Source: Escherichia phage PE37
Sequence record: NC_054929.1
DNA: 64,000 bases
Strand: one strand, 5' to 3'
Shown here: positions 366 through 51,203 of the stretch, piece after piece
Numbering within the stretch: position 1 is the first letter of the stretch
Layout: each line of letters starts with the position of its first letter
The notes under the pieces: generated by a model
Databases searched by the model: none
What the model was told of the DNA's origin: nothing
What the model saw: the letters and a program-made list of their open reading frames with translations, nothing else
Made by a program: the position numbers and the translations under genes

Positions 366-643
366 TGGCTCAATTAAGCGCAGGGTTTGGTTATGAGTAT
401 TATACTGCCCCTCGTCGTGCATCTGTTGCTCCTAAGAAAATTCAAAGTCTTGATGACTTCCAAGAAGTAGTCCGTAAAGCTTTTCAGGACTATGCACGTT
501 ATCTTAAAGAAGATTCACAGGACTGTCTCGAAGAAGATGAAATTGCTTACTATACGCAGCGTCTTGAACAGCTCAAAAATCTACATGAGGTTCGTGCAGA
601 AGTTTCAAAGTCTATGAATAAATTGATTAGATTTAAAGAATAA
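365..643 (+). CDS. hypothetical early protein (92 aa)
   Basis: Track ORF 323..643 trimmed to ATG 365 (TAATG overlap with upstream stop). Confidence 0.55.
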
Positions 644-645
644 CT

Positions 646-675
646 GTTTACTTTTCCTCTTGACTGTGGTATAAT
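646..675 (+). promoter_or_regulatory. T4-type early promoter (GTTTAC -35, 18 bp spacer, TATAAT -10)
   Basis: gtttacttttcctcttgactgtggtataat upstream of regB RBS GAGGAG. Confidence 0.6.
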
Positions 676-702
676 TTTTCTATCAGTTAAGAGGAGAATA
701 AC

Positions 703-1164
703 ATGACTATCAATACAGAAGTTTTTATCCGTCGAAATAAGCTTCGTCGTCACTTTGAGTCGGAGTTTCGTCAAATTAACAATGAGATTCGTGAGGCATC
801 AAAAGCAGCAGGGGTCTCATCGTTTCATCTAAAATATTCTCAGCATCTTCTTGATCGTGCAATTCAACGGGAGATTGATGAGACATATGTTTTTGAATTA
901 TTCCACAAAATAAAAGACCATGTTTTAGAAGTTAATGAATTCCTGAGTATGCCTCCGCGTCCTGACATTGACGAGGATTTTATTGATGGGGTTGAATATC
1001 GTCCTGGGCGTTTGGAAATTACAGATGGAAATCTTTGGCTTGGATTTACAGTTTGTAAGCCTAATGAGAAGTTCAAAAACCCGTCACTTCAATGCAGGAT
1101 GGCAATTATCAACAGTCGTCGTTTACCAGGAAAGGCTTCTAAAGCAGTAATTAAAACTCAATGA
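703..1164 (+). CDS. regB: RegB site-specific endoribonuclease
   Basis: 153 aa, matches recalled T4 RegB sequence/length; position upstream of tk cluster. Confidence 0.85.
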   Translation: MTINTEVFIRRNKLRRHFESEFRQINNEIREASKAAGVSSFHLKYSQHLLDRAIQREIDETYVFELFHKIKDHVLEVNEFLSMPPRPDIDEDFIDGVEYRPGRLEITDGNLWLGFTVCKPNEKFKNPSLQCRMAIINSRRLPGKASKAVIKTQ

Positions 1165-1171
1165 GGTAAGC

Positions 1172-1717
1172 ATGAGAAAAGCACTACTCGCTGGTCTATT
1201 GGCCATTTCAATGATGGCACATAGCTCCGAGCATACTTTCAGTAATGTCCAACTCGATAACATGCGTTACGCGTATCAATTCGGGGAACAATTTTCTAAG
1301 GATGGAAAATATAAAACACACAAAAATATCCACAAGAGCGGATTAGGTCATATAATGGCTGCTATTTTATGGCAAGAAAGCTCTGGCGGAGTTAATTTAA
1401 AATCTAAACCAAAGCATCACGCCTACGGAATGTTCCAAAATTATTTGCCTACTATGCGAGCAAGAGTTAAGGAACTTGGTTATAATATGACCGATGCTGA
1501 AATAAAAAGAATGTTGAATAAACGGTCCAATTCAGCTTCCTGGGCGTACATTGAACTTTCTTATTGGTTAAATATACATAAGGGCGATATAAGAAAAGCA
1601 ATATCCTCTTATAATTCGGGATGGAATGTTAAAGCAGGTTCTAAATATGCTTCTGAAGTCCTAGAAAAGGCTAATTACCTTAAAAATAATAAACTTTTGG
1701 AAATAGTAAATGACTAA
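1172..1717 (+). CDS. hypothetical secreted protein (181 aa), N-terminal signal peptide
   Basis: Track ORF; hydrophobic N-terminus MRKALLAGLLAISMMAHS. Confidence 0.6.
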   Translation: MRKALLAGLLAISMMAHSSEHTFSNVQLDNMRYAYQFGEQFSKDGKYKTHKNIHKSGLGHIMAAILWQESSGGVNLKSKPKHHAYGMFQNYLPTMRARVKELGYNMTDAEIKRMLNKRSNSASWAYIELSYWLNIHKGDIRKAISSYNSGWNVKAGSKYASEVLEKANYLKNNKLLEIVND

Positions 1718-2051
1718 AATTTTGGTTTTATGTATAGGATTAATTTCATTTTCTGCGTTAGCAAATACATCATATACTGAAATTAGAGAGTATGTAAACC
1801 GTACTGCCGCGGATTATTGCGGGAAAAATAAAGCATGCCAAGCTGAATTTGCGCAGAAATTAATATATGCATATAAAGACGGAGAAAGAGATAAATCAAG
1901 CAGATACAAAAATGATACATTGTTAAAACGATATGCTAAAAAGTGGAATACCTTAGAATGTTCAGTTGCGGAGGAGAAAGATAAAGCCGCTTGTCATTCA
2001 ATGGTTGACCGTTTAGTAGATTCTTATAATCGAGGATTGAGTACTAGATGA
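1710..2051 (+). CDS. hypothetical secreted protein (113 aa), Cys-containing
   Basis: Track ORF; signal-peptide-like N-terminus; start overlaps upstream stop. Confidence 0.55.
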   Translation: MTKILVLCIGLISFSALANTSYTEIREYVNRTAADYCGKNKACQAEFAQKLIYAYKDGERDKSSRYKNDTLLKRYAKKWNTLECSVAEEKDKAACHSMVDRLVDSYNRGLSTR

Positions 2052-2527
2052 TTGTAAAATATATCAAGGGCGATATTGTCGCCCTATTTCTTCAAGGTAA
2101 TATTATTGCGCACGGGTGCAATTGTTTTCATACTATGGGTTCAGGTGTAGCGGGTCAATTAGCAAGAGCCTATCCTAAAATTTTAGAAATAGATAAAACC
2201 ACTACTGAGTACGGTTCTCGTGATAAATTAGGCGATATGTCTATTGTTTTTAAACATAATCCTACGGGATTTGGTATATGCTATAACCTGTATACGCAAT
2301 ACGAACCGGGTCCTAATCTTGATTATGGTGCTTTAGTAAACTGCATGATAGAATTAAATCTACAGGCAGAAACCCTTTTGTTTAAACCAGTAATTTACAT
2401 TCCACGCATAGGTTGTGGTATTGCTGGCGGTGATTGGGATAAGGTTTCTAAATTAATCGACATGTTTACTCCTGATATTGATTTAATAGTGGTGGATTAT
2501 GAAAGTACATTACCCGCATCCGTTTGA
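2048..2527 (+). CDS. macro-domain protein (ADP-ribose binding / possible ADP-ribosyl hydrolase)
   Basis: Macro-domain-like Gly-rich motifs (HGCNCFHTMGSGVAGQ; IPRIGCGIAGGDW); 159 aa; ATGA overlap. Confidence 0.6.
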   Translation: MIVKYIKGDIVALFLQGNIIAHGCNCFHTMGSGVAGQLARAYPKILEIDKTTTEYGSRDKLGDMSIVFKHNPTGFGICYNLYTQYEPGPNLDYGALVNCMIELNLQAETLLFKPVIYIPRIGCGIAGGDWDKVSKLIDMFTPDIDLIVVDYESTLPASV

Positions 2528-2711
2528 TCCTAAAAACAAAGTGGAAATTATTCGTCAATGGGAACGCATTTGCCGTACTAAATGCCCAATTAATAGTCCA
2601 CATGATGTAGATAAAGACTATATTGGAACATTCGTTGAATATACCTTTATTGATAGGAAAGGTCGTAAACAACATGTAGAAGAATATTGCTTAAAGGTTA
2701 CATGGTTATGA
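2499..2711 (+). CDS. hypothetical protein (70 aa)
   Basis: Track ORF, overlaps macro gene 3' end by 29 nt. Confidence 0.4.
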   Translation: MKVHYPHPFDPKNKVEIIRQWERICRTKCPINSPHDVDKDYIGTFVEYTFIDRKGRKQHVEEYCLKVTWL

Positions 2712-2914
2712 GCCAAACTAGTATTCTTAAAAATGCTCATTGTGAAAAGTGTGAATGGCCAGTTGTTTTTGCTTTATGTAATGATGAAATGGCTTGTGAT
2801 TTCGATTATTGGTGCTATTGTTCCAATAAAGGATGCATCAATCATAAAGGTGAAGGATTTTATTCAGGATTTTATCCTTATCCTGATTTCGTTAAAGAAG
2901 GTAAACCGAAATGA
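2708..2914 (+). CDS. Cys-rich small protein (68 aa), possible zinc-binding
   Basis: Track ORF 2687..2914 trimmed to ATG 2708 (ATGA overlap); 9 Cys in 68 aa. Confidence 0.5.
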   Translation: MSQTSILKNAHCEKCEWPVVFALCNDEMACDFDYWCYCSNKGCINHKGEGFYSGFYPYPDFVKEGKPK

Positions 2915-3084
2915 ATAGTTTTGAGTTACAATATGAAGTGTTACGTGAGCTTGATAATTTAATTGAACTCGCTGCTAATAAAGGTTTTGCCATTGGAATC
3001 GGTCAAAAAGATACTGACCATTTAACTACGGAAATATTTAAGCAAAAGCGAATTATTTTAAAACTCCTGGAAATTAATATATGA
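2911..3084 (+). CDS. hypothetical small protein (57 aa)
   Basis: Hand-called ORF, ATGA overlaps on both sides; below track size cut-off. Confidence 0.4.
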   Translation: MNSFELQYEVLRELDNLIELAANKGFAIGIGQKDTDHLTTEIFKQKRIILKLLEINI

Positions 3085-3266
3085 GTCTGAGTAAAGAACA
3101 AAAAGATAAATTGTTTGAGCTTATCCATGAACTTCTAGATGAGCATGCAGAAGCAAACACCTTTTATGATGAATACGGCCCGCTATCTCCCGAACAACAA
3201 GAAGAATTTGCTGACCGGTTTGATAAGAAAGAAAACGAATTAATAGCTTATGTGAATACGCTTTAA
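3081..3266 (+). CDS. hypothetical acidic small protein (61 aa)
   Basis: Track ORF immediately upstream of tk. Confidence 0.5.
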   Translation: MSLSKEQKDKLFELIHELLDEHAEANTFYDEYGPLSPEQQEEFADRFDKKENELIAYVNTL

Positions 3267-3275
3267 GAAGGTGAT

Positions 3276-3857
3276 ATGGCGAGTTTAATTTTTACTTATG
3301 CAGCAATGAATGCTGGAAAATCTGCTTCTCTTTTGACTGCTGCACATAATTATAAAGAACGTGGAATGAGTGTATTAGTTCTTAAGCCTGCTATTGATAC
3401 TCGCGATTCTGTCTGTGAAGTTGTTTCTCGCATTGGAATTAAACAGGAAGCGAATATTATTACAGATGATATGGATATTTTCGAGTTCTATAAATGGGCT
3501 GAAGCACAAAAAGATATTCATTGTGTATTTGTAGATGAAGCTCAGTTTTTAAAAACTGAACAAGTGCATCAATTGAGCCGAATTGTTGATACATATAATG
3601 TTCCTGTTATGGCTTATGGATTAAGGACTGATTTCGCTGGAAAATTGTTTGAAGGTTCTAAAGAACTTTTAGCGATTGCAGATAAACTTATTGAACTAAA
3701 GGCAGTTTGTCATTGCGGCAAAAAAGCGATTATGACAGCTCGATTAATGGAAGATGGAACACCAGTTAAAGAAGGTAATCAAATCTGTATTGGTGATGAA
3801 ATTTATGTTTCTTTGTGCAGAAAACATTGGAATGAATTAACTAAAAAGCTCGGTTAG
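3276..3857 (+). CDS. tk: thymidine kinase
   Basis: 193 aa, P-loop NAGKSASL, near-identical to recalled T4 Tk. Confidence 0.95.
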   Translation: MASLIFTYAAMNAGKSASLLTAAHNYKERGMSVLVLKPAIDTRDSVCEVVSRIGIKQEANIITDDMDIFEFYKWAEAQKDIHCVFVDEAQFLKTEQVHQLSRIVDTYNVPVMAYGLRTDFAGKLFEGSKELLAIADKLIELKAVCHCGKKAIMTARLMEDGTPVKEGNQICIGDEIYVSLCRKHWNELTKKLG

Positions 3858-3899
3858 TGCAAAAGTTATAAATAGGTTTATCTAACTAAAGGGGTATAT

Positions 3900-4112
3900 A
3901 TGCTACAATTAACTGAAAAGCAACTTCGCAATCTTACTGTTCTTCAATTAGATGAAATTCGTAGGGAAGTTGGAAATATCATTTCAGCTTTGCGTCGAGA
4001 AGTATCACTCAACCAATCTCCGGCAGACTATACTAGATTGCGAAATTTTGAAAAATACCTTGATAAAGTTAAGGCCGTGCATCGGCATAAAGTAAATACA
4101 GGACAAAAATGA
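3900..4112 (+). CDS. hypothetical protein (70 aa), rI.1-like by position
   Basis: Track ORF with RBS GGGG upstream. Confidence 0.5.
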
Positions 4113-4124
4113 TAGGAGGCCTTT

Positions 4125-4418
4125 ATGGCCTTAAAAGCAACGGCACTATTTGCCATGCTAGGATTAGCGTTTGCTTTATCTCCACCGATTGAAGCGAATG
4201 TCGATCCTCATTTTGATAAATTTATGGAATCTGGCATTAGACATGTTTATATGCTTTTTGAAAATAAAAGCGTAGAATCATCTGAACAGTTCTATAGTTT
4301 TATGCGAACGACCTATAAAAATGACCCGTGCTCTTCCGATTTTGAATGTATAGAGCGAGGCGCGGAGATGGCACAATCATACGCTAGAATTATGAACATT
4401 AAATTGGAGACTGAATGA
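4125..4418 (+). CDS. rI: RI lysis-inhibition regulator (antiholin), periplasmic
   Basis: 97 aa with signal-anchor; near-identical to recalled T4 RI. Confidence 0.85.
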   Translation: MALKATALFAMLGLAFALSPPIEANVDPHFDKFMESGIRHVYMLFENKSVESSEQFYSFMRTTYKNDPCSSDFECIERGAEMAQSYARIMNIKLETE

Positions 4419-41781: not shown

Positions 41782-41964
41782 ATGGAATTGGTAAAGGTAG
41801 TTTTTATGGGGTGGTTTAAGAATGAAAGCATGTTTACTAAAGAAACCACAATGATGAAAGATGACGTTCAATGGGCTACTACTCAGTATGCTGAAGTTAA
41901 TAAAGCATTAGTTAAAGCTTTCATTGATGACAAGAAAGTATGTGAAGTAGATTGCCGAGGATAA
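41782..41964 (+). CDS. dmd: Dmd antitoxin (inhibitor of host RnlA/LsoA toxins)
   Basis: 60 aa, matches recalled T4 Dmd. Confidence 0.85.
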   Translation: MELVKVVFMGWFKNESMFTKETTMMKDDVQWATTQYAEVNKALVKAFIDDKKVCEVDCRG

Positions 41965-42578: not shown

Positions 42579-43214
42579 ATGATTTATTATATGCACAAAA
42601 ATCCACCGTTTAAATACGGTAAATTTCCTGATGCACAATGTTATAATATAACACCTGATGAAAATAACCGTGGATATCTTATTGGCACAATTTTTGTAAT
42701 TGTTAAAGATAACGAAATCGTTGCCTGGGCAGATTTTAAAGGTACAACATATGATGTTAATCCGGTGCCTTTCACATATTACAATATAATGGATTTGGCG
42801 TACGATTATAATTGGTTTAATCATGACACGTTGGCTCCTCATATTGAAGGTGTAGGATTTGACATCTCTTATTCTAGTTACTCGTTGTGTCCTATGAGCC
42901 GAGCTCATAGAGAGCCTGAATATTTTTCATTTCGTCGGCGTGTAGACTTTAAACGCAGCACAGAGTATGTCGGTGGAATATTTGTTAAAGATAATCGAAT
43001 TACTCGCATTATTTATCCTTTGGGCGGTGGTCAAAAAGATATTGATGTTGATTTAGACTTTACTGAAAACATCATTAATCATATTGCTTCTGTGTATTTT
43101 GATATTGATCACAAAATTGTAATATGTGGATATGAATTACCATCAGAAAAACAGTCTAAAGTAAATGTTTCTATTGATGACCAAATTTTTAATGCTTTTA
43201 TGAATAGAGGTTAA
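42579..43214 (+). CDS. hypothetical protein (211 aa)
   Basis: Track ORF. Confidence 0.6.
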   Translation: MIYYMHKNPPFKYGKFPDAQCYNITPDENNRGYLIGTIFVIVKDNEIVAWADFKGTTYDVNPVPFTYYNIMDLAYDYNWFNHDTLAPHIEGVGFDISYSSYSLCPMSRAHREPEYFSFRRRVDFKRSTEYVGGIFVKDNRITRIIYPLGGGQKDIDVDLDFTENIINHIASVYFDIDHKIVICGYELPSEKQSKVNVSIDDQIFNAFMNRG

Positions 43215-49103: not shown

Positions 49104-49727
49104 ATGATTATTAATCCTGCAGATGTTGAACAGTTATCTATAAAAGCTGAAAGCGTTGATTTTCAATATGATATGTATAAAAAGGTCTGTGAAAAATTTA
49201 CTGACTTTGAACAGTCAGTTCTTTGGCAGTGTATGGAAGCCAAAAAGAATGAAGCTCTTCATCGGCAGTTGAATAAAATCATTAAAAAGCATTTAACTAA
49301 ATCGCCTTATCAATTATATCGTGGTATATCAAAATCGACAAAAGAACTTATTAAAGATTTACAAGTTGGAGAAGTGTTTTCAACGAACAGGGTAGATTCA
49401 TTTACTACTAGTTTGCATACAGCGTGTTCTTTTTCTTATGCTGAATATTTCACTGAAACAATACTTCGTTTAAAAACTGATAAAGCTTTTAATTACTCTG
49501 ACCATATCAGCGATATTATACTTTCTTCTCCTAATACTGAGTTTAAGTACACGTATGAAGACACTGATGGATTAGATTCAGAGCGTACTGATAACTTAAT
49601 GATGATTGTACATGAACAAGAATGGATGATTCCAATTGGAAAGTATAGAATAACTTCTATTTCAAAAGAAAAATTACATGATTCATTTGGAACATTTAAA
49701 GTTTATGATATTGAGGTAGTTGAATGA
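49104..49727 (+). CDS. modB: ADP-ribosyltransferase ModB
   Basis: 207 aa, matches recalled T4 ModB; R-S-E-type ART signature (YRGI, STS). Confidence 0.8.
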   Translation: MIINPADVEQLSIKAESVDFQYDMYKKVCEKFTDFEQSVLWQCMEAKKNEALHRQLNKIIKKHLTKSPYQLYRGISKSTKELIKDLQVGEVFSTNRVDSFTTSLHTACSFSYAEYFTETILRLKTDKAFNYSDHISDIILSSPNTEFKYTYEDTDGLDSERTDNLMMIVHEQEWMIPIGKYRITSISKEKLHDSFGTFKVYDIEVVE

Positions 49728-50326
49728 AATACTCAGTAATGCAACTAAAAGATTTTAAAATAAAATCAATGGATGCATCGGTGCGTGCTTCTATTCGTGA
49801 AGAATTACTTTCTGAAGGGTTTAATTTATCTGAAATTGAACTTTTAATTCATTGTATTACTAATAAGCCAGATGACCATACTTGGTTAAATGAAATAATC
49901 AAATCTCGTTTGGTTCCAAACGATAAACCTCTTTGGAGAGGTGTTCCAGTCGAGACTAAGCAGGTGTTAAATCAAGGAATTGATATTATTACATTTGATA
50001 AAGTCGTATCAGCTTCATATGATAAAAATATAGCTCTACATTTTGCTTCCGGTTTAGAGTATAACACGCAAGTTATTTTTGAATTCAAAGCTCCTATGGT
50101 ATTCAATTTTCAGGAGTATGCTATAAAAGCTCTACGCTGTAAAGAATACAATCCAAACTTTAAGTTTCCGGATAGCCATCGTTATCGTAATATGGAATTA
50201 GTTTCAGATGAACAAGAAGTAATGATACCAGCTGGAAGTGTATTTAGAATTGCAGATAGATATGAGTACAAAAAGTATTCAACATACACTATCTATACTC
50301 TTGATTTTGAAGGATTTAATCTATAA
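49724..50326 (+). CDS. modA: ADP-ribosyltransferase ModA
   Basis: 200 aa, paralog of ModB, ATGA overlap; position as in T4. Confidence 0.75.
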   Translation: MKYSVMQLKDFKIKSMDASVRASIREELLSEGFNLSEIELLIHCITNKPDDHTWLNEIIKSRLVPNDKPLWRGVPVETKQVLNQGIDIITFDKVVSASYDKNIALHFASGLEYNTQVIFEFKAPMVFNFQEYAIKALRCKEYNPNFKFPDSHRYRNMELVSDEQEVMIPAGSVFRIADRYEYKKYSTYTIYTLDFEGFNL

Positions 50327-50380
50327 TGGAAGGACTTAGATTCATTATACCATGAAATTTTTGAAGCATTTTTCATAAAA

Positions 50381-50412
50381 TTGTTTACAAGCCAAGGTAA
50401 AAATGTTATAGT
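50381..50412 (+). promoter_or_regulatory. T4-type early promoter
   Basis: gtttacaagccaaggtaaaaatgttatagt. Confidence 0.5.
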
Positions 50413-50447
50413 ATAGTAGTCAATCGTCCGTAAGATGTGAGAAAAAT

Positions 50448-51203
50448 ATGAAACTGCATAATATGTCTAATAATCAAATTCGTAAAATTAAACGTCGTTT
50501 AGAGCACACTCAGGCATCTGCAAAAAGGCGTTCTAAAGATTTTAACTTAGACTTCAATTACATTAAGAATATTTTAGATCAAAAAGTTTGTGCTTACTCG
50601 GGAGAACCTTTTGATAATCGTATTGAAGGAGAGAAATTATCATTAGAACGTTTTGATAATAACGTTGGATACATTAAAGGGAATGTTATTGCAGTAAAGA
50701 AAAAGTATAATACATTTCGTTCTGATTATACTTTAGAAGAGTTGATTGAAAAACGGGATTTATTTGCTTTGCGAATTGGTCGTTCATCTGCGAAAAAAGT
50801 TCATAAACTAAATTTAGATGAAAAGAAATGGGCTAAAATCAAAAAGACTTATAATCAAATTAAAGCTATACAGAAAAAGCGTGAAAATCGAATTGAACAC
50901 ATTTCTCAGCTTTCTAAATCAAAACAGACCTCTGACATTAAGCTAAGGATTATAGCACTTAAAGCTCGTATTGATGGTTCTCGCATAGCAGAAGGCGCTG
51001 AAGTTGTTAAACTGAACGTTCTTCTTAAAGGCTCGGATTGGAAAACTGTGAAAAAGTTGTCAGAAGCAGAAATGCAATATGATATGTGTGATAAAATTAT
51101 TCAAGGTGTAGAGCGGTATCAAAACTTGTCTTTTATTGATAAACTTAAACTGAAAAGAGGATACCCGCTAAATTGTTCAATTTTTAAACTTATCCGAGGA
51201 TAA
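50448..51203 (+). CDS. srd: hypothetical basic protein (251 aa), possibly Srd
   Basis: Position between modA and dda.1 as T4 srd; identity by synteny only. Confidence 0.4.
   Translation: MKLHNMSNNQIRKIKRRLEHTQASAKRRSKDFNLDFNYIKNILDQKVCAYSGEPFDNRIEGEKLSLERFDNNVGYIKGNVIAVKKKYNTFRSDYTLEELIEKRDLFALRIGRSSAKKVHKLNLDEKKWAKIKKTYNQIKAIQKKRENRIEHISQLSKSKQTSDIKLRIIALKARIDGSRIAEGAEVVKLNVLLKGSDWKTVKKLSEAEMQYDMCDKIIQGVERYQNLSFIDKLKLKRGYPLNCSIFKLIRG

What the first reader, a model, noticed from the sequence alone, without database searches (positions are those of the whole stretch)
2048..2527. Macro-domain protein encoded just upstream of tk, in the same genome as ModA/ModB ADP-ribosyltransferases
The 159-aa ORF has the Gly-rich motifs typical of macro domains (HGCNCFHTMGSGVAGQ and IPRIGCGIAGGDW), which bind or hydrolyse ADP-ribose. 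T-even phages ADP-ribosylate host proteins (ModA, ModB here at 49104-50326), and several bacterial defences signal through ADP-ribose or NAD derivatives. A phage macro domain could be an eraser or counter-defence enzyme.
Basis: partly seen in the sequence, partly recalled or inferred. Interest (0 to 1): 0.6.

Follow-up and report, generated by a model that had tools for sequence, protein, structure and literature searches.

The report
T4-type phage macrodomain Tk.4 (AdfM)

Summary
The ORF at 2048-2527 (+), 159 aa, and both quoted motifs are present. It is a true macrodomain. Pfam Macro scores 33.1 bits against a cutoff of 22. The AlphaFold model has pLDDT 92. The best fold matches are TARG1, Poa1p, BT1257, DarG and SCO6735.

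The window is a Tequatrovirus. The gene sits in the tk.4 slot (vs, tk.4, tk.3 ... tk). The A1pp/macro match of tk.4 orthologues was reported in 2006, and T4 RefSeq notes the same motif. A bioRxiv preprint from November 2025 (HIDEN-SEQ) found tk.4 to be the only T4 gene needed on a DarTG2 host. A knockout became sensitive, and the gene was renamed adfM.

The counter-defence reading is therefore supported. The specific link to ModA/ModB is not.

Three details are added here:
- This allele is only about 57% identical to T4 Tk.4, although the flanking genes are 91-100% identical.
- The family has an invariant Gln at the position of the catalytic Lys of DarG and TARG1, as SCO6735 does.
- PhiKZ "AdfM" belongs to a different, Lys-type lineage.

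No enzymatic activity has been shown for any Tk.4 protein. Novelty: already known. Interest is low.

The parts
2048..2527 (+). tk.4 / adfM coding sequence, 159 aa, a single macrodomain with no extra domain
   Evidence: ORF. Pfam Macro 33.1 bits. AF2 pLDDT 92.3. Foldseek matches to TARG1, Poa1p, DarG and SCO6735. Syntenic with tk.4 of PP01 and T4.
2111..2158 (+). Loop 1 motif HGCNCFHTMGSGVAGQ (residues 22-37). Contains invariant H22, G23, N25, C26, G33, A35.
   Evidence: Invariant in all 119 members that cover these positions, out of 121 sequences (query + 120). Aligns with SCO6735 H24-V25-C26-N27 via family member P0096.
2120..2122 (+). Asn25, the canonical macrodomain active-site Asn (equivalent to SCO6735 Asn27)
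   Evidence: Present in 119 of 119 members that cover it. The N27S mutant of SCO6735 almost loses activity (PMC9411070). A conserved Asn is also needed in PhiKZ AdfM (PMC13309987).
2297..2299 (+). Gln84 in the invariant N-x-Y-T-Q motif. It occupies the position of catalytic Lys84 of TARG1, the DarG Lys, and Gln85 of SCO6735.
   Evidence: Gln in 121 of 121 sequences (query + 120). The profile alignment to TARG1 pairs it with K84. P0096 alignments pair the family Gln with SCO6735 Q85 and with the Lys of Mtb DarG PTK.
2399..2437 (+). Phosphate-binding loop IPRIGCGIAGGDW (residues 118-130). G122 and G124 are equivalent to SCO6735 G126 and G128. A126 sits where TARG1 has Asp125.
   Evidence: Alignment to 5e3b 'LPRIGCGLAGGTW'. 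TARG1 alignment. Invariant P119, G122, G124, W130.
1710..2051 (+). vs (valyl-tRNA synthetase modifier), the upstream gene. Its stop overlaps the tk.4 start (ATGA).
   Evidence: phrog_1256 E 6.5e-40. 96.5% identical to T4 Vs. Sequence read.
2499..2711 (+). tk.3, the downstream gene. It overlaps the tk.4 3' end by 29 nt.
   Evidence: ORF. phrog_2008. 91% identical to T4 Tk.3.

Best explanation
The gene is the Tequatrovirus orthologue, in a divergent allele, of T4 tk.4, also called adfM (anti-DarT factor Macrodomain). It encodes a stand-alone, single-domain macrodomain of the TARG1/ALC1-like class. When a host DarT2 toxin ADP-ribosylates thymidines in single-stranded phage DNA and blocks replication, this protein most likely binds the ADP-ribose through its two Gly-rich loops and cleaves the thymine-ribose bond. 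That restores the DNA, so the protein acts as an orphan antitoxin.

Shown here: the ORF, the macro fold, its class, synteny and orthology with T4 tk.4, and the conserved active-site residues.

Shown by others, for the T4 allele only: tk.4 is required for T4 growth on a DarTG2 host.

Inferred: the same role for this 57%-identical allele, and the enzymatic step itself. The family carries an invariant Gln where DarG and TARG1 have the catalytic Lys. The chemistry is therefore more likely that proposed for SCO6735 (Gln and Asn position the distal ribose, and a water molecule starts catalysis) than the Lys-dependent chemistry of TARG1 and DarG.
For: - Macro domain: Pfam 33.1 bits against a cutoff of 22. 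AF2 pLDDT 92.3 and pTM 0.88.
- Fold class: the top Foldseek PDB matches are TARG1, Poa1p, BT1257, Taq and Mtb DarG and SCO6735, all at probability 1.0 with TM 0.68-0.82. A PDB profile search gives BT1257 3e-18, TARG1 4e-17, SCO6735 2.7e-14 and DarG 1.5e-11.
- Best curated-family hits are DarG: NCBIfam NF048014 at E 1.4e-6 and PADLOC DarG at 4.5e-7, over the macro half only.
- Orthology: same slot between vs and tk.3 as in PP01 and T4. BLASTP against T4 Tk.4 gives 58% identity, E 1e-70, with no gaps over 155 residues.
- Genetics: T4 tk.4 was the single HIDEN-SEQ hit on DarTG2, and a clean knockout was sensitised (10.1101/2025.11.20.689424). T2 and T4 lacking the NADAR factor stay DarTG2-resistant (PMC11825919).
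- Active site: H22, N25, Q84, G122 and G124 are invariant. SCO6735 has Gln85 at the same position, cleaves dT-ADPr, and is killed by Q85A; N27S and G128E also impair it (PMC9411070).
- Precedent: an independent phage macrodomain, PhiKZ gp104, removes ADP-ribose from DarT2-modified DNA in vitro (PMC13309987).
Against: - I found no biochemical assay for any Tk.4-family protein. The preprint itself only says the enzymatic mechanism 'seems likely'.
- The genetics come from a preprint and from the T4 allele. The window allele shares only 57-58% identity with it, and its phosphate-binding loop differs (IGCGIAGGDW here, IGAGIGKGNW in T4).
- The catalytic Lys of DarG and TARG1 is absent.
- The DNA-positioning lysines of SCO6735 (K34, K89) are not conserved here: S32 aligns with K34, and there is a gap or E86 at K89.
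- SCO6735 Q85A still inhibits DarT by binding, so a non-catalytic contribution cannot be excluded.
Confidence: 0.75

Rival explanations
1. It is a small-molecule ADP-ribose-metabolite enzyme, either an ADP-ribose-1''-phosphate phosphatase like yeast Poa1p or an O-acetyl-ADP-ribose deacetylase. This is what the database names 'phosphatase' and 'A1pp' imply.
For: T4 RefSeq calls it 'phosphatase; contains A1pp phosphatase motif'. PHROG 335 is labelled 'phosphatase'. Poa1p is among the best sequence and fold matches (6lfu 1.5e-9; 6lfr TM 0.75) and shares the H-x-C-N-C motif.
Against: The names derive from the domain name, not from any assay (the 2006 paper reports only a CDD match). The only phenotype on record is DarTG2 sensitivity. 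The residue aligned with Poa1p S30 (mutated in PDB 6lft) is T29 here, and it varies across the family: T in 70 of 121 sequences, otherwise L, V, Q, S or M. Macrodomains of this class often show such side activities in vitro, so a positive assay would not make it the biological role.
Confidence: 0.08
2. It erases or tunes the phage's own ADP-ribosylation marks, meaning protein Arg-ADP-ribose or RNAylation written by Alt, ModA and ModB. This is the link the first reader hinted at.
For: ModB and ModA are encoded in the same window at 49104-50326. Arginine-specific macrodomains exist (MavL, cited in PMC13036486).
Against: There is no genomic linkage: the genes are 47 kb apart. All nearest relatives belong to the TARG1-like class. 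In the U-ADPr assays of PMC13036486, only TARG1-like macrodomains were active, and other macrodomain, ARH and NADAR hydrolases were not. The family occurs in 2776 phage records spanning many genera. Whether those genomes also carry Mod homologues was not checked. tk.4 was not reported as required on plain E. coli K-12.
Confidence: 0.04
3. It neutralises DarT2 mainly by binding, either to the toxin or to the modified DNA, rather than by catalysis.
For: Catalytically dead SCO6735 Q85A, DarG K80A and TARG1 K84A all inhibit DarT in vitro, and SCO6735 does so most strongly (PMC9411070). The family lacks the catalytic Lys.
Against: H22, N25, Q84 and both Gly loops are invariant across 121 sequences at 38-97% identity. 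That pattern is expected for a conserved active site. The protein lacks the C-terminal DarT-binding domain of DarG, matching only model positions 2-142 of 338. PhiKZ AdfM acts enzymatically.
Confidence: 0.08
4. Its main targets are other base-linked ADP-ribose marks, such as uracil-ADP-ribose on RNA or the products of defence ADP-ribosyltransferases not yet described. On this view DarT2 is only one of its targets.
For: TARG1, DarG and SCO6735 all also reverse U-ADPr on RNA (PMC13036486). Two old, strongly diverged alleles are exchanged at this locus within otherwise near-identical genomes. Bacterial homologues stand alone with no adjacent darT.
Against: There is no direct evidence. T4 remains sensitive to the RNA adenine ADP-ribosyltransferase CmdT (PMC11618068), so not all such marks are reversed.
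Confidence: 0.05

Closest known systems
T4 Tk.4 = AdfM (anti-DarT factor Macrodomain; NP_049723; bioRxiv 10.1101/2025.11.20.689424)
   Same: It has the same genomic slot (vs, tk.4, tk.3). It is a single macrodomain of similar length (159 aa here, 155 in T4). The alignment is gap-free at 58% identity, E 1e-70. All family-invariant residues are shared.
   Different: It is a distinct, old allele: about 57% identity against 91-100% for the flanking genes, with synonymous sites saturated. The phosphate-binding loop is IGCGIAGGDW here and IGAGIGKGNW in T4. The anti-DarTG2 phenotype was tested only for the T4 allele.
Streptomyces coelicolor SCO6735 (PDB 5e3b), thymidine-ADPr DNA hydrolase
   Same: It is also a stand-alone macrodomain of the ALC1/TARG1-like class. 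It has Gln at the catalytic-Lys position, the H-x-C-N motif, and a near-identical PB loop (PRIGCGLAGGTW against PRIGCGIAGGDW) (PMC9411070).
   Different: It is bacterial and DNA-damage-inducible. Sequence identity is about 26%. Its DNA-positioning K34 and K89 are not conserved in the window protein.
DarG antitoxin macrodomain (Taq 5m31/5m3e, Mtb 5m3i; NCBIfam NF048014)
   Same: DarG gives the best curated-family hit. It has the same fold (TM 0.73-0.78), and the proposed reaction is the same: removal of ADP-ribose from DarT2-modified thymidine.
   Different: The window protein has no C-terminal DarT-binding domain and no adjacent darT. It has Gln instead of the catalytic Lys. It scores 27.8 bits against a family cutoff of 250.
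PhiKZ gp104 'AdfM' (Cell Rep 2026, PMC13309987)
   Same: It is a phage stand-alone macrodomain that counters DarT2. It shares the conserved Asn and the Gly loops.
   Different: Identity is only 18-23% (hhalign probability 96%). It carries a DarG-type P-T-K lysine motif and is imported into the phage nucleus. It belongs to a different lineage that shares the name.
Human TARG1/OARD1 and yeast Poa1p; Bacteroides BT1257 (2afc/2fg1)
   Same: These are the top fold and sequence matches. BT1257 also has Gln at the catalytic position, and Poa1p shares H-x-C-N-C.
   Different: The TARG1 catalytic pair K84/D125 corresponds to Q84/A126 here. Poa1p acts on ADPr-1''-phosphate. BT1257 has no known function.

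Membership tests
Macro domain superfamily (Pfam PF01661) | Profile score above Pfam's gathering threshold over the whole domain | tested here: met
   33.1 bits against a cutoff of 22, E 5.8e-8, profile positions 2-117 of 118.
Macro domain superfamily (Pfam PF01661) | Three-layer alpha/beta/alpha macro fold | tested here: met
   AF2 model at pLDDT 92.3 with a mixed beta-sheet flanked by helices. 156 PDB matches at E<=0.001, and the 50 listed are macrodomains or designed proteins that also match TTHA0132.
Macro domain superfamily (Pfam PF01661) | Conserved Asn plus two Gly-rich ADP-ribose/phosphate-binding loops | tested here: met
   N25, G31-x-G33 and G122-x-G124-x-x-G-G are invariant or nearly so in 121 sequences (query + 120).
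Macro domain superfamily (Pfam PF01661) | Binds ADP-ribose | not testable with these tools
   Needs ITC, DSF or a co-crystal structure.
T4 Tk.4 / AdfM orthologous group | Full-length homology and conserved position between vs and tk.3 | tested here: met
   58% identity, E 1e-70, no gaps. Synteny in PP01 and T4. PHROG 335 at E 1.6e-71.
T4 Tk.4 / AdfM orthologous group | Confers resistance to DarTG2 | not testable with these tools
   Shown only for the T4 allele, in a preprint.
DarG antitoxin (NCBIfam NF048014, equivalog) | Whole-protein score above the curated cutoff, with a two-domain architecture (macro plus C-terminal DarT-binding domain) | tested here: not met
   27.8 bits against a cutoff of 250. 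The match covers only model positions 2-142 of 338, and the protein is 159 aa.
DarG antitoxin (NCBIfam NF048014, equivalog) | Catalytic lysine (Taq DarG K80) | tested here: not met
   The family Gln aligns with the Lys of Mtb DarG 'PTK' and with TARG1 K84. Gln in 121 of 121 sequences.
DarG antitoxin (NCBIfam NF048014, equivalog) | Encoded next to a darT toxin gene | tested here: not met
   The neighbours are vs and tk.3. Bacterial homologue P0096 also has no darT neighbour.
SCO6735-type (Gln-type) thymidine-ADPr hydrolases within the ALC1/TARG1-like class | Gln at the catalytic-Lys position, held by the canonical Asn; conserved PB-loop Gly (G128) | tested here: met
   Q84, N25 and G124 align with Q85, N27 and G128 of SCO6735. 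Their roles are described in PMC9411070.
SCO6735-type (Gln-type) thymidine-ADPr hydrolases within the ALC1/TARG1-like class | DNA-positioning lysines K34 and K89 | tested here: not met
   K34 aligns with S32. K89 falls in a gap or at E86 of the window protein.
SCO6735-type (Gln-type) thymidine-ADPr hydrolases within the ALC1/TARG1-like class | Hydrolyses dT-ADPr on ssDNA | not testable with these tools
   Needs a gel-shift de-ADP-ribosylation assay.
Poa1p-like ADP-ribose-1''-phosphate phosphatase | Residues probed by the deposited Poa1p mutants (H23, S30, F152) conserved | tested here: inconclusive
   The H23 equivalent, H22, is invariant. The S30 equivalent, T29, is variable. The Poa1p alignment is only local, covering residues 3-79 and 116-148. 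F152 was not placed.
PhiKZ-type AdfM (gp104) | Close homology and the DarG-like P-T-K motif | tested here: not met
   18-23% identity. The window protein has Y-T-Q.

The most novel reading that the evidence does not exclude
Tk.4-type AdfM proteins may be a separate, Gln-type lineage of phage DNA de-ADP-ribosylases, SCO6735-like in mechanism and not derived from DarG. The two old alleles exchanged among near-identical T-even genomes may differ in substrate range, for example against different DarT2 variants, U-ADPr on RNA, or base-ADP-ribosylating defences not yet described. If so, this locus would be a swappable counter-defence cassette rather than a simple orphan DarG.
Probability: 0.25. Interest if true: 0.45.

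Novelty: already known. Interest (0 to 1): 0.2.

Why it matters
Host ADP-ribosylation of phage DNA by DarT toxins is an established anti-phage defence. T-even phages are now known to carry separate erasers for the guanine mark (AdfN, a NADAR protein) and the thymine mark (Tk.4/AdfM). This window carries the tk.4-type eraser and an AdfA homologue. That is useful for annotation and for predicting host range against DarTG2.

Three things remain open, and they are modestly interesting. No Tk.4 protein has been assayed biochemically. The family lacks the lysine that TARG1 and DarG use for catalysis. This phage carries an allele far from the one tested. None of this makes the finding new: the macro domain has been annotated since the 2000s, and the counter-defence role was published in 2025.

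Tried and rejected
- A terminator-like hairpin at 2067-2085, just inside the tk.4 5' end, has the same bases in T4. Its RNA fold is not better than shuffles (z = -1.43, 17 of 200 shuffles fold as well), so I dropped it as chance.
- The sigma-70 promoter scan of 600-4200 found 14 sites against 14.9 expected, so it gives no information.
- I asked whether bacterial relatives are DarG-like operon members. P0096 in Pelagimonas has no darT neighbour, and P0111 sits on a phage-like contig. This gives no support for recent capture from a DarTG operon.
- I asked whether PhiKZ AdfM is the same family. It is not: 18-23% identity and Lys-type.
I repeated it without that row.
- Querying the PDB with only the C-terminal 105 residues, to force display of a SCO6735 alignment, gave only the PB-loop part. 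Using family member P0096 as the query gave full alignments to SCO6735 and Mtb DarG.
- I searched JACS 2026 (PMC12879935) and the 2021 review (PMC8120803) for biochemistry on phage Tk.4 and found none.

Full report
**Observation.** HGCNCFHTMGSGVAGQ is residues 22-37 and IPRIGCGIAGGDW is residues 118-130. The start codon overlaps the stop of the upstream gene (ATGA at 2048-2051). The next ORF starts at 2499, 29 nt before the stop, so the genes are packed like an operon. tk is at 3276-3857 (phrog_592, E 4e-88). That is 749 bp downstream with four small ORFs between, so 'just upstream' is approximate. The two Mod genes are at the coordinates given. 49104-49727 is 97.1% identical to T4 ModB, and 49724-50326 is 98.5% identical to T4 ModA.

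**Is it a macrodomain?** Yes.
- Pfam Macro (PF01661) scores 33.1 bits against a curated cutoff of 22 and covers essentially the whole profile.
- phmmer against PDB sequences finds BT1257 (1.6e-10), Poa1p (1.5e-9), SCO6735 (8.5e-8), Mtb DarG (4.8e-5) and TARG1 (0.0098).
- A profile of 36 family members raises these to 3e-18, 5.5e-15, 2.7e-14, 1.5e-11 and 4e-17 respectively.
- An AlphaFold2 model built on that alignment has mean pLDDT 92.3 and pTM 0.88.
- Foldseek against the PDB returns TARG1, Poa1p, BT1257, Taq and Mtb DarG and SCO6735 at probability 1.0 with TM-scores of 0.68-0.82. Viral nsp3 macrodomains rank lower.

All the best hits belong to the group that the literature calls the ALC1-like or TARG1-like class (PMC9411070).

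**What gene is it?** The 2.2-kb region is 98% identical at the DNA level to hundreds of Tequatrovirus genomes. In phage PP01 the corresponding CDS is annotated tk.4, in the order regB, vs.1, vs, tk.4, tk.3..., tk, rI. T4 itself has the same order. There tk.4 (NP_049723, 155 aa) is annotated 'phosphatase; contains A1pp phosphatase motif'. The A1pp (macro) match of tk.4 orthologues was reported in 2006 (PMC1524935). Several GenBank records call this protein 'macro domain protein'. The domain assignment is therefore old knowledge.

**What does it do?** A bioRxiv preprint of November 2025 (10.1101/2025.11.20.689424) ran a transposon library of T4 on E. coli expressing DarTG2. tk.4 was the single significant hit. 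A clean knockout sensitised T4 to DarTG2. The authors noted similarity to the M. tuberculosis DarG macrodomain and renamed the gene adfM. They stated that enzymatic removal of ADP-ribose from DNA 'seems likely'. This fits earlier work showing that T2 and T4 lacking the NADAR factor AdfN, which handles the guanine mark of DarT1, remain resistant to DarTG2 (PMC11825919). Consistent with this, the best NCBIfam and PADLOC hits of the window protein are the DarG models. They cover only the macro half and score far below the family cutoff: 27.8 bits against 250, matching model positions 2-142 of 338.

**Detail 1: a divergent allele.** The window protein is not the T4 allele. Against T4, the amino-acid identities are:

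| Gene | Identity to T4 |
|---|---|
| vs.1 | 100% |
| vs | 96.5% |
| tk.4 | 57% |
| tk.3 | 91% |
| tk | 99.5% |
| rI.1 | 100% |

BLASTP over the aligned 155 residues gives 58% identity. The first 30 nt of tk.4 are identical, after which identity falls to 37-87% per 30-nt block. Synonymous differences are saturated (pS 0.62 overall), and dN/dS is about 0.2-0.3. This is an old, selectively maintained allele moved by recombination, not a decaying gene. Of the 50,697 phage records searched, 311 carry this allele at 90% identity or more, and 2776 records have a family member at E<=1e-5. Function is therefore transferred from T4 by inference, not by identity.

**Detail 2: the catalytic position.** In the query plus its 120 closest family representatives, H22, N25, Q84, G122, G124 and W130 are essentially invariant. 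Gln84 is present in 121 of 121. The profile alignment to TARG1 pairs Q84 with the catalytic K84, and A126 with D125. Using the bacterial family member P0096 as a bridge, the family's N-x-Y-T-Q aligns with SCO6735 N-M-I-G-Q (Gln85) and with Mtb DarG N-F-P-T-K. Three facts come from PMC9411070:
- DarG K80, TARG1 K84 and SCO6735 Q85 are equivalent positions.
- SCO6735 nevertheless cleaves thymidine-linked ADP-ribose.
- Q85A abolishes activity, N27S almost abolishes it and G128E substantially reduces it. The proposed mechanism is started by a water molecule.

The window protein has the equivalents of all three residues (Q84, N25, G124) and a near-identical phosphate-binding loop. It lacks equivalents of the DNA-positioning K34 and K89 of SCO6735. 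So it works like DarG but is not a DarG: it has no C-terminal domain, no darT neighbour and no catalytic Lys. Within the class it is closest to the Gln-type enzymes SCO6735 and BT1257.

**Detail 3: a name collision.** A Cell Reports 2026 paper (PMC13309987) independently named PhiKZ gp104 'AdfM' and showed that it removes ADP-ribose from DarT2-modified DNA in vitro. gp104 is only 18-23% identical to the window protein (hhalign probability 96%) and carries a DarG-like F-P-T-K motif. Two different macrodomain lineages therefore share one name. The in vitro proof belongs to the other lineage.

**Rivals.**
- The 'phosphatase' label derives from the domain name and has no assay behind it. Poa1p similarity is real but local, and the residue aligned with Poa1p S30 is variable in the family.
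- A role in erasing the phage's own Alt/ModA/ModB marks has no support beyond co-occurrence in the genome. The gene lies 47 kb from the mod genes and belongs to the TARG1-like class. Arg-specific macrodomains do exist (MavL, cited), so the idea is not excluded in principle.
- Inhibition of DarT2 by binding is conceivable, because dead SCO6735 still inhibits DarT. The invariant active-site residues argue for catalysis.
- Activity on other base-linked marks, such as U-ADPr on RNA, is plausible as an addition, since TARG1, DarG and SCO6735 all have it.

**Context of relatives.** A bacterial homologue (P0096, Pelagimonas) is a stand-alone gene with no darT nearby. Another homologue (P0111) lies on a phage-like contig. 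This gives no sign of recent capture from a DarTG operon.

**Verdict.** The feature is already known, both as a macrodomain (2003-2006 annotations) and as a counter-defence gene (2025 preprint). What remains open is biochemical proof for any Tk.4-type protein, the Gln-based mechanism, and whether this divergent allele has the same specificity.

Noticed in passing
window 2048-2527 compared with T4 (L002 4423-4890): tk.4 is an island of divergence. It is about 57% identical to T4 at the amino-acid level, while flanking vs.1, vs, tk.3, tk and rI.1 are 91-100% identical. The first 30 nt are identical. Synonymous sites are saturated and dN/dS is about 0.2-0.3. This points to an old allele exchanged by recombination.
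   Followed up: partly
window 2687-3266: The gene content between tk.3 and tk differs from T4. ORF 2687-2914 is a Pfam 'Phage zinc binding domain' protein, ORF 2911-3084 matches phrog_3452, and ORF 3081-3266 is DUF7438 with only 54% identity to T4 Tk.2. There is no clear Tk.1 counterpart.
   Followed up: partly
window 2067-2085: There is an 8-bp GC-rich hairpin (AGGGCGATATTGTCGCCCT) 20 nt into tk.4, with identical bases in T4. Its predicted RNA stability is not better than shuffled sequence (z = -1.43), so it is probably chance.
   Followed up: yes
window 42579-43211: This is a homologue of T4 gp61.2, 79% identical by tblastn. From my own knowledge of LeRoux et al. 2022 (not read here), 61.2 is the gene named AdfA, the anti-DarTG1 factor. 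If so, the same phage carries a second anti-DarT gene in this window. dmd lies at 41782-41961 (AdfA background in PMC11825919).
   Followed up: partly
window 49104-51203: The gene order is ModB (207 aa) first, then ModA (200 aa), then Srd anti-sigma factor (50448-51203, 99% identical to T4). Neither Mod protein hits any Pfam family at E<=0.01, although both match phrog_832.
   Followed up: yes
L003 7518-8006 (PhiKZ gp104) compared with the window protein: The name AdfM is used in the literature for two macrodomain lineages that are only 18-23% identical and differ at the catalytic position (P-T-K in PhiKZ, Y-T-Q in T-even phages).
   Followed up: yes
window 1172-1717: vs.1 is 100% identical to T4 Vs.1. 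It has a hydrophobic N-terminus that looks like a signal peptide (by eye) and a weak match to a lytic tail protein PHROG. An SLT transglycosylase match was reported in 2006.
   Followed up: no
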